NCBI RefSeq assembly: GCF_013315695.1
Contig: NZ_CP054353.1
DNA length: 64,000 bases
Strand: one strand, 5' to 3'
DNA from: Escherichia coli
Lineage (GTDB): Bacteria > Pseudomonadota > Gammaproteobacteria > Enterobacterales > Enterobacteriaceae
The notes under the pieces are model-generated. The model did no database searches. It was not told the DNA's origin and saw only the letters and a list, made by a program, of their open reading frames with translations. The first letter of the stretch is position 1, and each line of letters opens with the position of its first letter. This document shows positions 10,583-14,109 of this stretch, one piece after another. A program made the translations under genes and the position numbers.

Positions 10583-13015
10583 ATGAGTGTGATTGCGCAG
10601 GCAGGGGCGAAAGGTCGTCAACTGCATAAATTTGGTGGCAGTAGTCTGGCTGATGTGAAGTGTTATTTGCGTGTCGCGGGCATTATGGCGGAGTACTCTC
10701 AGCCTGACGATATGATGGTGGTTTCCGCCGCCGGTAGCACCACTAACCAGTTGATTAACTGGTTGAAACTAAGCCAGACCGATCGTCTCTCTGCGCATCA
10801 GGTTCAACAAACGCTGCGTCGCTATCAGTGCGATCTGATTAGCGGCCTGTTACCCGCCGAAGAAGCCGATAGCCTTATTAGCGCTTTTATCAGCGATCTG
10901 GAGCGCCTGGCGGCGTTGCTCGACAGCGGTATTAACGACGCGGTGTATGCAGAAGTGGTGGGCCACGGTGAAGTGTGGTCGGCGCGCCTGATGTCTGCGG
11001 TACTTAATCAACAAGGGCTGCCAGCGGCCTGGCTTGATGCCCGCGAGTTTTTACGCGCTGAACGCGCTGCGCAACCGCAGGTTGATGAAGGGCTTTCTTA
11101 CCCGTTGCTGCAACAGCTACTGGTACAACATCCGGGCAAACGTCTGGTGGTGACCGGGTTTATCAGCCGTAACAACGCCGGTGAAACGGTGCTGCTGGGG
11201 CGTAACGGTTCCGACTATTCCGCGACACAAATCGGTGCGCTGGCGGGTGTTTCCCGCGTAACCATTTGGAGCGATGTCGCCGGGGTATACAGTGCCGACC
11301 CGCGTAAAGTGAAAGATGCCTGTCTGCTGCCATTGCTGCGTCTTGATGAAGCCAGTGAACTGGCGCGTCTGGCGGCCCCCGTTCTTCACGCCCGTACTTT
11401 ACAGCCAGTATCCGGTAGTGAAATCGACCTGCAACTGCGCTGTAGCTACACGCCGGATCAAGGTTCCACGCGCATTGAACGCGTGCTGGCCTCAGGTACT
11501 GGCGCGCGTATTGTCACCAGCCACGATGATGTCTGTTTGATTGAGTTTCAGGTGCCCGCCAGTCAGGATTTCAAACTGGCGCATAAAGAGATCGACCAGA
11601 TCCTGAAACGTGCTCAGGTGCGCCCACTGGCGGTTGGCGTACATAACGATCGCCAGTTGCTGCAATTTTGCTACACCTCAGAAGTCGCTGACAGTGCGCT
11701 GAAAATTCTCGACGAAGCGGGATTACCTGGCGAACTGCGCCTGCGTCAGGGGCTGGCGCTGGTGGCGATGGTTGGGGCGGGCGTAACCCGTAACCCGCTG
11801 CATTGCCACCGCTTCTGGCAGCAACTGAAAGGCCAGCCGGTCGAATTTACCTGGCAGTCCGATGACGGCATCAGCCTGGTGGCAGTACTGCGCACCGGGC
11901 CGACCGAAAGCCTGATTCAGGGTCTGCATCAGTCCGTCTTTCGCGCGGAAAAACGCATCGGCCTGGTATTGTTCGGCAAGGGCAATATCGGTTCCCGCTG
12001 GCTGGAACTGTTCGCCCGTGAGCAGAGCACGCTTTCGGCGCGTACCGGCTTTGAATTTGTGCTGGCAGGCGTGGTGGACAGCCGCCGCAGCCTGTTGAGC
12101 TATGACGGGCTGGACGCCAGCCGCGCGTTAGCCTTCTTCAACGATGAAGCGGTCGAGCAGGATGAAGAGTCGCTGTTCCTGTGGATGCGCGCCCATCCGT
12201 ATGATGATTTAGTGGTGCTGGACGTTACCGCCAGCCAGCAGCTTGCTGATCAGTATCTCGATTTTGCCAGCCACGGTTTCCACGTCATCAGCGCCAACAA
12301 ACTGGCGGGAGCCAGCGACAGCAATAAATATCGCCAGATCCACGACGCCTTCGAAAAAACCGGGCGTCACTGGCTGTACAATGCCACTGTCGGTGCGGGT
12401 TTGCCGATCAACCATACCGTGCGCGATCTGATCGACAGCGGCGATACCATTTTGTCGATCAGTGGGATCTTCTCTGGCACGCTCTCCTGGCTGTTCCTGC
12501 AATTCGACGGTAGCGTGCCGTTTACCGAGCTGGTGGATCAGGCGTGGCAGCAGGGCTTAACCGAGCCTGATCCGCGTGATGACCTTTCCGGCAAAGACGT
12601 GATGCGCAAGCTGGTGATTCTGGCGCGTGAAGCGGGTTACAACATTGAACCGGACCAGGTGCGTGTTGAATCACTGGTGCCAACCCATTGCGAAGGTGGA
12701 AGCATCGACCATTTCTTTGAAAATGGCGATGAACTTAATGAGCAGATGGTACAACGGTTGGAAGCGGCCCGTGAAATGGGGCTGGTGTTGCGCTACGTGG
12801 CGCGTTTCGATGCCAACGGCAAAGCGCGAGTAGGCGTGGAAGCGGTGCGAGAAGACCATCCGCTGGCATCACTACTACCGTGCGATAACGTCTTTGCCAT
12901 CGAAAGCCGCTGGTATCGCGACAACCCGCTGGTGATCCGCGGGCCAGGTGCAGGGCGCGATGTCACCGCCGGGGCGATTCAGTCGGATATTAACCGTCTG
13001 GCGCAGTTGTTGTAA
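10583..13015 (+). CDS. metL: Bifunctional aspartokinase II / homoserine dehydrogenase II
   Basis: 810-aa ORF 2 bp after metB; aspartokinase N-domain and homoserine dehydrogenase C-domain. Confidence 0.93.
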   Translation: MSVIAQAGAKGRQLHKFGGSSLADVKCYLRVAGIMAEYSQPDDMMVVSAAGSTTNQLINWLKLSQTDRLSAHQVQQTLRRYQCDLISGLLPAEEADSLISAFISDLERLAALLDSGINDAVYAEVVGHGEVWSARLMSAVLNQQGLPAAWLDAREFLRAERAAQPQVDEGLSYPLLQQLLVQHPGKRLVVTGFISRNNAGETVLLGRNGSDYSATQIGALAGVSRVTIWSDVAGVYSADPRKVKDACLLPLLRLDEASELARLAAPVLHARTLQPVSGSEIDLQLRCSYTPDQGSTRIERVLASGTGARIVTSHDDVCLIEFQVPASQDFKLAHKEIDQILKRAQVRPLAVGVHNDRQLLQFCYTSEVADSALKILDEAGLPGELRLRQGLALVAMVGAGVTRNPLHCHRFWQQLKGQPVEFTWQSDDGISLVAVLRTGPTESLIQGLHQSVFRAEKRIGLVLFGKGNIGSRWLELFAREQSTLSARTGFEFVLAGVVDSRRSLLSYDGLDASRALAFFNDEAVEQDEESLFLWMRAHPYDDLVVLDVTASQQLADQYLDFASHGFHVISANKLAGASDSNKYRQIHDAFEKTGRHWLYNATVGAGLPINHTVRDLIDSGDTILSISGIFSGTLSWLFLQFDGSVPFTELVDQAWQQGLTEPDPRDDLSGKDVMRKLVILAREAGYNIEPDQVRVESLVPTHCEGGSIDHFFENGDELNEQMVQRLEAAREMGLVLRYVARFDANGKARVGVEAVREDHPLASLLPCDNVFAIESRWYRDNPLVIRGPGAGRDVTAGAIQSDINRLAQLL

Positions 13016-14109
13016 TCCTGAGCCAGAGAAAGCAGTATTTGCGTAACGCGCCCTGCGGAAAGCGGGGTGCTGTGAGTAAATACTGCTTGTTTATGTAGCC
13101 AGTCGATAAAATGTCTGCTGGTTGCGAAAGAGAGCATTACAGCTTTGCTGTTATTTCCGCCCGTTAATGCACATACCATTTTACGATTTTTGCCCTGAAC
13201 CCAGAGTTGCCACTGATTTTTCCACCAGCCGTGATAAGTTTTTCCCTGAAAACGCCAGGGCGTATTATCGGTATAGTCAGCTATTTCCTCTTCAATAAAC
13301 CAAATTTCACCTTGCTGTTGGCGAAACAGTTCTGCCCAGGCCGTAATAATCGCACCTCTTAAAAAACACTCGTGTGAAATTACATGTGTTTTTACTGTAG
13401 GGAATAAAATATTCAGTACTCTAAAATGCCCGTGCGCTGTGATAACCGGACGCAGAATAACACCTTTAGCATTGCGTTTGAGCGCTGCGCTGCCATACTG
13501 AATTTCATCAAACTGACTGCGGCGTAGAAATTGTGCTTCGCGCATATCAACGCGTTGTACAATATTACTCTCGTGTAACTCTGGTTCTGCATTTCCTCTG
13601 TATCGATAATACAGACTTTCTCCAGCCTGATGCTGCGTGTAATTAGTAGAAAGATGAAGAATATTACCGCGAAGAGCATCAAAACTGATTAAAACATACA
13701 GTTTCTGCCCGCCGCTGGCTCCCTGAAATGGCACCAGAAGAGCAACCGTTTCGATTATTTCAGGAGGCGTTATTTCTTTCTGATATTGTTTAGGTGTCCA
13801 GACTTTTTTGCAGTTACGACATTGAATGCGTTGCGACCCCTGTGGATTGTGGCCATAACAAATCGTCTTTGTGCCATAACATACCGGGCAGAAATGACCT
13901 TTCTCAGTTGCAAAAGTAGATAAGTGAACTGACAACCAGTCACGAAATTGCTGTTCGTCAAACAACGGCGGGTAACTTCCACATGCCCGACAGTGCAGTG
14001 CCGGATAACCCAGTCGATAGTCTGGCCAGCTGTAATCTGTCGAAGTTGGCTGCCCTAAATTACGGCAACCAAACGACTTGCAGGCATTAATCGTAAACAG
14101 AGTCGACAT
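12979..14109 (-). CDS. Hypothetical cysteine-rich (multi zinc-ribbon) protein, accessory; function unknown
   Basis: 376-aa ORF in visibly AT-richer DNA; N-terminal 100 aa carry C-x4-C, C-x2-C, C-x2-C and C-x2-C pairs including CPVC...QRIQCRNCKKVW, which resembles the IS1 InsA / IS1595-type transposase zinc ribbon; no recognisable catalytic motif; 3' end overlaps metL by 37 bp. Confidence 0.55.
   Translation of the reverse strand: MSTLFTINACKSFGCRNLGQPTSTDYSWPDYRLGYPALHCRACGSYPPLFDEQQFRDWLSVHLSTFATEKGHFCPVCYGTKTICYGHNPQGSQRIQCRNCKKVWTPKQYQKEITPPEIIETVALLVPFQGASGGQKLYVLISFDALRGNILHLSTNYTQHQAGESLYYRYRGNAEPELHESNIVQRVDMREAQFLRRSQFDEIQYGSAALKRNAKGVILRPVITAHGHFRVLNILFPTVKTHVISHECFLRGAIITAWAELFRQQQGEIWFIEEEIADYTDNTPWRFQGKTYHGWWKNQWQLWVQGKNRKMVCALTGGNNSKAVMLSFATSRHFIDWLHKQAVFTHSTPLSAGRVTQILLSLAQDYNNCARRLISD

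What the first reader, a model, noticed from the sequence alone, without database searches (positions are those of the whole stretch)
12979..13090. Zinc-ribbon ORF 3' end reads antisense into the metL stop and across a long inverted repeat
The minus-strand ORF terminates at 12979, 37 bp inside the 3' end of metL, so its last 12 codons are encoded by core metL sequence in antisense. Just upstream in the ORF, aagcagtattt (13031..13041) and aaatactgctt (13078..13088) form an 11-bp inverted repeat with a 36-nt spacer, placed where a metL terminator or an insertion junction would be expected. The native C-terminus may therefore be junction-derived (chimeric or extended), or the true gene may end earlier.
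Basis: seen in the sequence. Interest (0 to 1): 0.5.

Follow-up and report, generated by a model that had tools for sequence, protein, structure and literature searches.

The report
Gene tail reading backwards into metL
A conserved transposase-like gene ends by reading 37 bases backwards into the end of the methionine-pathway gene metL, so its last nine amino acids are a by-product of metL sequence; this is an ordinary kind of gene overlap whose history can be traced unusually clearly.

Summary
The minus-strand 376-aa ORF (12979..14109) overlaps metL (10583..13015) by 37 bp.

The ORF is a real, conserved gene with zinc ribbons and an RNase H-like transposase fold. It is paired with a divergent 5'-nucleotidase gene, and this two-gene module sits between metL and metF in many Enterobacteriaceae.

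The conserved protein core ends at invariant Tyr366-Asn367. Everything after that is encoded by whatever DNA lies downstream:
- **Klebsiella, Kosakonia, Phytobacter:** 7 nt separate the YN codons from the metL stop, and the ORF reads 26 nt into metL in another frame.
- **The window's lineage:** it is 14 nt shorter, consistent with a deletion between two TACAAC repeats. This gives the 37-bp overlap and the tail NCARRLISD.
- **Copies moved elsewhere:** several still carry a decayed metL fossil.

The tail is therefore junction-derived, but the junction is ancient, not a recent insertion scar.

The inverted repeat is the outer stem of an unusually stable hairpin in the metL-sense RNA, followed by a U-rich stretch. 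It is possibly a metL terminator embedded in the ORF's coding sequence. That part is inferred, not shown.

The parts
10583..13015 (+). metL (bifunctional aspartate kinase / homoserine dehydrogenase II), stop codon TAA at 13013-13015
   Evidence: ORF list; RefSeq annotation of the identical genome; 91.8% DNA identity to K-12 metL up to 13016
12979..14109 (-). 376-aa gene ('cytoplasmic protein'): N-terminal zinc ribbons plus an RNase H-like (DDE transposase/integrase) fold
12979..13015 (.). 37-bp tail-to-tail coding overlap of metL and the 376-aa gene
   Evidence: Coordinates. The same overlap occurs in the E. coli alleles, E. whittamii, two unnamed Escherichia lineages, two Pseudocitrobacter species and a Citrobacter-labelled MAG
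13009..13014 (-). Codons of invariant Tyr366-Asn367 (TAC AAC), the end of the conserved protein core. Here they are the complement of metL's last bases GTTGTA
   Evidence: Invariant in alignment A1. N367 is present in 47 of 50 sequences and Y/F/H366 in 48 of 50 of the wide family alignment A4. Sequence
12982..13008 (-). Nine-residue tail NCARRLISD, encoded by metL antisense, followed by stop TGA at 12979-12981. It is a non-conserved passenger sequence
   Evidence: Tails differ in every other layout. All tail polymorphisms (R/S371, R/L372) are synonymous in metL
13016..13017 (.). Left breakpoint relative to K-12. K-12 aligns up to 13016 and resumes at 16027, so 13017..16026 (3010 bp) stands in place of 197 bp in K-12
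   Evidence: blastn of the window against the K-12 locus L001
13030..13088 (+). Long imperfect hairpin in the metL-sense RNA, 14 nt after the metL stop and inside ORF codons 341-361.
   Evidence: Pair counts and compensatory changes
13089..13098 (+). U-rich stretch GTTTATGTAG directly 3' of the hairpin (5 U in the first 8 nt)
   Evidence: Sequence. It meets the tail criterion stated, although the scan did not call the site because the stem is long and interrupted
14110..14241 (.). Conserved divergent control region between the 376-aa gene and the 5'-nucleotidase gene. It carries TGTGA-N6-TCACA at 14167-14182 and the palindrome CAACGA-N10-TCGTTG at 14117-14138
   Evidence: 12-genus alignment A5, 78% mean column identity
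14242..15795 (+). Bifunctional metallophosphatase / 5'-nucleotidase gene, the constant partner of the 376-aa gene
   Evidence: It is the adjacent divergent gene in every locus where that flank was held; the match in L025 lies too near the contig end to show it

Best explanation
This is a tail-to-tail overlap of two real genes, created by loss of the downstream gene's own 3' end. It is not a recent insertion scar.

The gene and its module. The 376-aa gene is a single-copy, transposase-derived gene. Together with a divergent 5'-nucleotidase gene it forms a module that sits between metL and metF in many Enterobacteriaceae. Its conserved core stops at Tyr366-Asn367, and translation then runs on into whatever DNA follows.

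Origin of the overlap.
- Ancestral layout (shown in Klebsiella, Kosakonia and Phytobacter): 7 nt lie between the YN codons and the complement of the metL stop. The gene reads 26 nt into metL in one frame, giving the tail ..TAxAPDG.
- The window's lineage (Escherichia and Pseudocitrobacter): a 14-nt deletion between two TACAAC direct repeats is inferred. One repeat is the YN codons; the other is the complement of metL's GTTGTA. The deletion placed the YN codons on top of the metL end and shifted the frame. The gene now reads 37 nt into metL and ends NCARRLISD.
- The tail carries no conserved information and drifts with metL's synonymous sites.

The inverted repeat. It is the outer stem of a long hairpin in the metL transcript, 14 nt past the metL stop, followed by a U-rich stretch. 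Its most likely role is as the 3'-end hairpin of metL (intrinsic terminator or stabiliser), written into the coding sequence of the convergent gene. I put this step at about 0.45; it is inferred, not shown.
For: Overlap and coordinates.

The conserved core ends at Y366-N367 and the tails vary:
- Alignment of 23 homologues.
- The 374-aa E. coli allele in a longer island aligns to residue 367, then ends ESLTPSC.
- 36 loci from 100,044 species genomes were sorted by layout.

Layouts:
- Six loci of Klebsiella, Kosakonia and Phytobacter have a 7-nt spacer and tails that are metL antisense in another frame.
- Seven loci plus the E. coli alleles share the window's -7 layout and tail.
- Citrobacter has 46-112 nt of REP-like DNA in between, and its tails are REP-encoded.

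metL fossils. Copies that sit elsewhere (next to kdsA or mtfA) still carry a decayed metL 3' end starting exactly 7 nt after YN:
- L027: 31 of 40 nt identical, z 11.8.
- L008: z 9.
- L009 and L025: z 5-6.
- L027 shows TACAAT + 7 nt + TTACAACAAC, which is the proposed precursor of the deletion.

Tree. Layout A occurs in two deep clades, and layouts B and D are sister groups.

Passenger tail. All tail polymorphisms are synonymous in metL.

Not a mobile-element scar. There is a median of one copy per genome, and no terminal repeats flank the block.

Hairpin:
- z = -5.45 in metL sense against -4.15 on the other strand.
- z = -2.5 to -6.3 in all layout-B loci and -3.3 to -4.7 in Klebsiella layout-A loci. 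z is about 0 (+0.1 to -1.6) in Kosakonia/Phytobacter and about 0 in Citrobacter and in translocated copies.
- 82.1% of cells are paired, with 0 of 500 shuffles reaching this value.
- Compensatory changes occur at pairs 13-71, 15-69, 34-50 and 37-47.
- The remaining loci show 55.8% paired, which is not significant.

Known kind. The literature describes convergent overlaps arising by stop-codon loss, with terminators inside the partner's coding sequence (PMC2174442).
Against: The 14-nt deletion is reconstructed. No Escherichia genome with an intact layout-A junction next to metL was found; only the fossil in translocated copies attests it.

The tree is a quick neighbour-joining tree.

For the hairpin:
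- No transcript-end data exist.
- The structure was derived from the window sequence, which biases the pair counts towards it.
- Layout-B sequences are close relatives of one another.
- RNAalifold on its own recovers only the inner 6 pairs.
- The perfect 11-bp repeat is broken in Pseudocitrobacter cyperus and Escherichia E2593 without compensation.
- The nearest translocated copies still keep 15-18 of 22 pairs.
- Kosakonia and Phytobacter overlap metL without a strong hairpin.
- The stem base is A/U-rich and the stem is long and interrupted, which is unlike a textbook terminator. The consensus scan did not call it.
Confidence: 0.8

Rival explanations
1. The hairpin and inverted repeat have no function. 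They are a by-product of the codons for a conserved protein segment (..FTHSTPLSAGRVTQILLSL..). metL transcription ends some other way, for example by Rho or further inside the ORF.
For: - A perfect 11-mer inverted repeat is expected by chance about 1.4 times per 64 kb.
- The arms are not kept in P. cyperus or Escherichia E2593.
- RNAalifold keeps only 6 inner pairs.
- Translocated relatives retain 15-18 of 22 pairs although they have no metL next to them.
- Kosakonia and Phytobacter lack a strong hairpin despite overlapping metL.
- The terminator scan did not call the site.
Against: - z = -5.45 to -6.3 against dinucleotide shuffles.
- The fold is in the top 5 of 2368 local windows.
- Compensatory double changes between Escherichia and Klebsiella occur in the same register.
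- Fold z-scores are about 0 in all 18 loci where metL is not directly abutting.
- The fold is more stable on the metL-sense strand, through G-U pairs.
Confidence: 0.45
2. The block 13017..16026 is a recently inserted island. The repeat is a terminal inverted repeat or attachment-site remnant at its junction with metL, and the ORF tail is a fresh chimera.
For: - K-12 and most E. coli lack the block, and K-12 diverges from the window immediately after the metL stop.
- The ORF has a transposase-like fold.
Against: - The module lies between metL and metF in at least six genera, with the ORF already reading into metL.
- No matching repeat exists at the other end of the block, and there is no target duplication.
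- The median is one copy per genome.
- The repeat lies inside conserved coding sequence, 14 nt from the breakpoint.
- Translocated copies carry metL fossils, so the metL-adjacent state came first.
Confidence: 0.04
3. The annotated ORF is too long. The real gene ends upstream of metL, and the overlap is an annotation artefact.
For: The last nine residues are not conserved.
Against: - There is no in-frame stop before 12979.
- Conservation, including invariant Y366-N367, reaches 13009, which is already inside metL.
- The AlphaFold2 model has one C-terminal helix spanning residues 352-375.
Confidence: 0.02
4. The overlap is a selected regulatory device. Convergent transcription or RNA duplex formation couples expression of the module to the MetJ-controlled metBL operon, in the manner of an excludon.
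For: - The overlap or near-abutment with metL has persisted in several genera.
- No minus-strand terminator-like site follows the ORF inside metL, so ORF transcripts probably run antisense into metL.
Against: - The module works in other locations without metL.
- Citrobacter tolerates 46-112 nt of REP DNA in between.
- Most E. coli lack the module altogether.
- The tail evolves neutrally.
- No expression data are available.
Confidence: 0.1

Closest known systems
Convergent (tail-to-tail) overlapping genes formed by loss of a stop codon and read-through into the neighbour (Fukuda et al. 2003, from my own knowledge; Lillo & Krakauer 2007, PMC2174442)
   Same: Two real convergent genes. One gene's 3' end was lost or deleted, and translation continues to the next chance stop inside the neighbour. 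The added tail is short and unconserved, and the conserved partner (metL) dictates the sequence.
   Different: The event can be dated and staged. There is an old 26-nt overlap in one frame, a 14-nt repeat-mediated deletion giving a 37-nt overlap in another frame, REP insertions that undo the overlap in Citrobacter, and translocated copies that carry a fossil of the neighbour.
Rho-independent terminators located inside the coding sequence of the convergent partner (PMC2174442 reports one gene using such a terminator in 19 of 58 convergent overlaps in E. coli)
   Same: A stable hairpin plus a U-rich stretch lies just past the metL stop, necessarily inside the other gene's codons.
   Different: The stem is long (22-24 pairs with an internal loop) and A/U-rich at its base. 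No 3' end has been mapped, and the consensus scan did not call it.
IS1 / IS1595-type transposases (N-terminal zinc ribbon plus a DDE RNase H-like catalytic domain)
   Different: The gene is single-copy and syntenic, with no terminal repeats. Full-length transposase models are not met (20.5 bits against a cut-off of 100). Candidate acidic residues are only partly conserved (D144 is D or E in 37 of 50 sequences; D201 in 43 of 50). The 30-45 residues that follow YN in distant relatives are missing. The gene is always paired with a 5'-nucleotidase gene.

Membership tests
Convergent gene overlap by 3' extension | Both overlapping ORFs are real, conserved genes | tested here: met
   metL matches at 90-100% amino-acid identity in 25 related loci. 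The ORF is 58-98% identical across genera, has an intact reading frame in nearly all loci (L050 and L051 are truncated or partial) and many invariant residues, and gives a confident fold
Convergent gene overlap by 3' extension | The overlapping tail is absent or different in relatives that do not overlap in the same way | tested here: met
   Tails differ in layouts A, C and D and in the long island. The same tail is found only with the same junction
Convergent gene overlap by 3' extension | The sequence of the overlap is governed by one partner, and the other evolves as a passenger | tested here: met
   MetL residues IQSDINRLAQLL are identical in all 12 sequences compared. Every nucleotide difference is synonymous in metL, and three of them change the ORF tail
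Intrinsic (Rho-independent) terminator of metL | Stable stem-loop shortly after the stop codon | tested here: met
   -38.9 to -43.5 kcal/mol, z -5.45 to -6.3, starting 14 nt after the stop
Intrinsic (Rho-independent) terminator of metL | U-tract immediately 3' of a G+C-rich stem base | tested here: inconclusive
   GUUUAUGU has 5 U in 8 nt, but the stem base is A/U-rich. The scan did not report the site. K. pneumoniae has a scan-positive site with UCUGUUUUUC in the equivalent place
Intrinsic (Rho-independent) terminator of metL | Transcript 3' ends map to the U-tract | not testable with these tools
   No transcript data were available
Insertion sequence / island junction | Terminal inverted repeats at both ends of the inserted block, with a target-site duplication | tested here: not met
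   The repeat search of 12900-16200 finds no pair at the two breakpoints 13016/13017 and 16026/16027
Insertion sequence / island junction | Several copies, or varied insertion sites within a genome | tested here: not met
   The median is 1 place per E. coli genome. The position next to metL is the same across genera
IS1/IS1595 family transposase | Match to the curated transposase models above their cut-offs | tested here: not met
   IS1_IS1595_Zn scores 21.3 bits against a cut-off of 28, and transpos_IS1 scores 20.5 against 100. No Pfam domain reaches E <= 0.001
IS1/IS1595 family transposase | RNase H-like DDE catalytic fold | tested here: met
   [not shown]
IS1/IS1595 family transposase | Invariant DDE catalytic triad | tested here: inconclusive
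   D144 is D or E in 37 of 50 sequences, D201 in 43 of 50, and E247 in 50 of 50 of alignment A4. The positions were not checked in three dimensions
Known RNA family (Rfam) | Match to a curated covariance model | tested here: not met
   Nothing in 12000-16400 except one chance-level hit elsewhere, at E = 0.67

The most novel reading that the evidence does not exclude
The 376-aa protein may be a domesticated IS1/IS1595-like transposase that now serves the neighbouring nucleoside-scavenging genes (5'-nucleotidase, Tsx). For example, it could act as a DNA-binding regulator at the invariant palindrome in the shared control region. Its 3' end would have been welded to the metL 3' end since before the enterobacterial genera split. 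A metL terminator hairpin would then be maintained by compensatory, protein-compatible substitutions inside its last 30 codons.
Probability: 0.25. Interest if true: 0.5.

Novelty: new member of a known kind. Interest (0 to 1): 0.3.

Why it matters
For annotation, it settles three points. The 376-aa ORF is real, its functional core ends at residue 367, and the last nine residues should not be used for homology or function inference.

It also gives a clean, staged example of how tail-to-tail overlaps arise and change:
- truncation onto a neighbour;
- a frame switch by a 14-nt repeat-mediated deletion;
- undoing of the overlap by REP insertion;
- fossils of the neighbour carried along when the module moves.

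If the hairpin is the metL terminator, it would be a tidy case of an RNA signal co-evolving with the coding sequence on the opposite strand.

None of this changes how such systems are understood. The uncharacterised transposase-derived gene family and its fixed pairing with 5'-nucleotidase genes is the part most worth following up.

Tried and rejected
- Pfam, NCBIfam and PHROGs scans of the ORF gave only weak zinc-ribbon hits.
- A profile search of PDB sequences returned only cysteine-rich zinc-finger noise.
- The first AlphaFold2 run, on 23 close homologues, was unusable (pLDDT 52.7). A 50-sequence alignment with distant relatives fixed this.
- The Rfam search found nothing relevant.
- The consensus terminator scan did not flag the hairpin.
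- K-12's 197-bp replacement showed no similarity to the module at word size 7, so the route by which K-12-type genomes lack the module was left open.
- I looked for terminal repeats or duplications at the block's ends and found none.
- I considered a REP origin for the hairpin. I rejected it by eye, because the sequence is unlike the REP-like units seen in K-12 and Citrobacter.
- One literature query failed on syntax, and I did not repeat it.
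Full report
**Where the window comes from.** The region is Escherichia coli and is 100% identical to isolate AF3. The local gene order is metJ-metB-metL, then a 376-aa ORF on the minus strand, a 5'-nucleotidase gene on the plus strand, then metF-katG.

**Checking the observation.**
- metL is 10583..13015 and the ORF is 12979..14109, so the overlap is 37 bp.
- The inverted repeat is real. Its second arm is 13078-13088, and the spacer is 37 nt.
- A perfect 11-mer inverted repeat with a short spacer is not rare. 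Markov simulations of the window give 1.44 on average.
- The repeat is the outer stem of a 27-nt-arm imperfect palindrome.
- The metL-sense RNA of that palindrome folds at -43.5 kcal/mol, z = -5.45. The opposite strand folds at -29.4 kcal/mol, z = -4.15.
- Only 5 of 2368 local 81-nt windows fold as well, and one of these covers the hairpin.

**The breakpoint relative to K-12.** K-12 aligns to the window up to 13016, one base past the metL stop, and again from 16027. The window's 3010 bp therefore stand where K-12 has 197 bp. In the RefSeq complete genomes:
- 1836 of 5426 E. coli genomes carry the two-gene module.
- 1182 carry this exact junction.
- Others carry a longer island: metL, a tsx-like gene, two more 5'-nucleotidase genes, a 374-aa allele of the ORF, a 5'-nucleotidase gene and metF.
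- That 374-aa allele is 77% identical and aligns only to residue 367. It then ends ESLTPSC instead of NCARRLISD.

**Where the protein really ends.**
- A search of 5.8 billion proteins found 253 relatives, all unnamed or called 'cytoplasmic protein', in Escherichia, Citrobacter, Klebsiella, Enterobacter, Pluralibacter, Kluyvera and Pseudocitrobacter.
- Their alignment has many invariant columns. The last of these are Tyr366 and Asn367, after which the tails vary from 3 to about 40 residues.
- In a wider alignment with relatives at 20-40% identity, Asn367 is still present in 47 of 50 sequences.
- The gene therefore cannot end earlier than 13009, and its last nine residues are not part of the conserved protein.
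- The YN codons (13009-13014) are themselves the complement of metL's final GTTGTA.

**Layouts across genera.** I fetched contexts for seven homologues and 36 loci from one genome per species. I located the YN codons, the metL stop and the tail in each. Four layouts appear.
- *Layout A (Klebsiella pneumoniae, K. oxytoca, K. spallanzanii, Kosakonia, two Phytobacter).* The YN codons are followed by 7 nt and then the complement of the metL stop. The ORF reads 26 nt into metL and ends ..TAxAPDG.
- *Layout B (the window and other E. coli, E. whittamii, two unnamed Escherichia lineages, two Pseudocitrobacter species, one Citrobacter-labelled MAG).* The YN codons lie on the metL end. The overlap is 37 nt and the tail is NCA[R/S][R/L]LISD.
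- *Layout C (Citrobacter, Superficieibacter).* Between 46 and 112 nt of REP-like DNA lie between YN and metL, and the tails are translations of that DNA.
- *Layout D.* The module sits elsewhere, for example next to kdsA in E. albertii and next to mtfA in a Klebsiella species.

**Fossils and the deletion.**
- Several layout-D loci carry, starting exactly 7 nt after YN, an ungapped but decayed copy of the antisense metL 3' end. L027 matches 31 of 40 nt (z 11.8), L008 has z 9, and L009 and L025 have z 5-6. These copies therefore descend from layout A and took a piece of metL with them.
- In a neighbour-joining tree, layout A occurs in two deep clades, and B and D are sisters. Layout A is thus ancestral.
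- Layouts A and B differ by 14 nt.
- In the Escherichia-type fossil the sequence is TACAAT + 7 nt + TTACAACAAC. Two TACAAC repeats therefore lie 14 nt apart, and deleting one repeat plus the spacer gives exactly the window's GAT TAC AAC AAC TGC. This step is an inference from the sequences.

**The tail is a passenger.** Across 12 sequences the MetL residues IQSDINRLAQLL never change. The nucleotide differences are all synonymous in metL. They produce R/S at ORF residue 371 and R/L at residue 372. The third base of Asp365 pairs with the third base of the metL stop: GAT goes with TAA, and GAC goes with TAG.

**The hairpin.**
- Its arms encode ORF residues QAVF and QILL. Its inner stem encodes S-T-P and A-G-R.
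- Folding the homologous 81 nt in every locus gave metL-sense z-scores of -2.5 to -6.3 in all layout-B loci and -3.3 to -4.7 in the three Klebsiella layout-A loci. The z-score is about 0 (+0.1 to -1.6) in Kosakonia/Phytobacter, and about 0 in Citrobacter and all translocated copies.
- Escherichia and Klebsiella pair in the same register with different bases.
- On the 15 metL-overlapping loci, 82.1% of cells pair. Slid controls give 34-50%, and 0 of 500 shuffles reach the observed value. Double changes occur at four pairs.
- On the other 18 loci, 55.8% of cells pair, which is not significant.
- Several caveats apply. The structure came from the window sequence. Layout-B sequences are close relatives. 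RNAalifold alone keeps only six inner pairs. The nearest translocated copies still form 15-18 of the 22 pairs. The strand asymmetry is modest, 82.1% against 76.6%.
- The hairpin is followed by GUUUAUGU. The equivalent K. pneumoniae site is followed by UCUGUUUUUC and is called terminator-like by the scan.
- K-12 has only a small hairpin after metL. No Rfam family matches.
- I read the hairpin as a probable metL 3'-end signal embedded in the partner's codons, at roughly even odds.

**What the ORF is.**
- With a 50-sequence alignment, AlphaFold2 gives pLDDT 95 and pTM 0.93.
- The N-terminus matches the IS1/IS1595 zinc-binding domain weakly here and above cut-off in two distant relatives.
- AFDB neighbours are 'cytoplasmic protein' entries, plus Vibrio-group proteins auto-named IS1 family transposase.
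- Distant relatives carry 30-45 further residues after YN, with a shared ..G.TPAQR.GL.. pattern. The whole enterobacterial subfamily lacks these residues. This fits an old truncation at the metL junction.
- The gene is single-copy and syntenic, and lacks terminal repeats. It looks like a domesticated transposase derivative rather than an active insertion sequence.

**Comparison with what is known.** Convergent overlaps formed by loss of a stop codon, with read-through to the next chance stop, are well described. So is the consequence that any intrinsic terminator must then lie inside the partner's coding sequence; this is reported for 19 of 58 convergent overlaps in E. coli (PMC2174442). The finding is a new, well-resolved member of that kind.

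**Verdict.**
- The junction-derived tail is supported.
- The readings 'ends earlier' and 'recent insertion junction' are rejected.
- The terminator role remains open.

Noticed in passing
window 14110-14241: The divergent control region between the 376-aa gene and the 5'-nucleotidase gene is more conserved across 12 genera (78% mean column identity) than the genes themselves. It holds perfect CRP-type half sites TGTGA-N6-TCACA at 14167-14182. It also holds an almost invariant palindrome CAACGA-N10-TCGTTG at 14117-14138, just upstream of the ORF's ribosome-binding site.
   Followed up: partly
[not shown]
   Followed up: partly
L004 (NZ_CP039404.1 284000-296000); window 13017-16026: E. coli has three states of the metL-metF interval: the K-12 type (197 bp including a REP-like unit), the short two-gene module (this window), and a long island with a tsx-like porin gene and two extra 5'-nucleotidase genes. 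The 5'-nucleotidase gene next to metF is a pseudogene with an internal stop in some strains.
   Followed up: partly
L006, L029, L032-L035, L037, L038, L040-L042 (Citrobacter, Superficieibacter): REP-like palindromic units inserted between the ORF core and metL are translated as the ORF's C-terminal tail, for example ..DLPGGAAAYRAYGSPDKRKRHPA...
   Followed up: no
window 16021-16034 and 16177-16190: A 14-nt near copy (13 of 14) of the metF start region, ATGAGTTTTTTTCA, sits exactly at the right-hand K-12 breakpoint (16026/16027), 156 nt upstream of the real metF start. It may be chance.
   Followed up: no
L051 (Salmonella enterica subsp. arizonae): Only a partial match to the ORF (residues 126-368) was found. 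Its YN codons lie 948 nt from the metL stop, and a 5'-nucleotidase gene and metF are nearby. The module may be decaying in this lineage.
   Followed up: no
L020 and L027 (E. coli SCPM-O-B-8794): One E. coli genome carries two copies of the module. One is at metL in the window's layout. The other sits elsewhere with three 5'-nucleotidase genes and a metL fossil.
   Followed up: no
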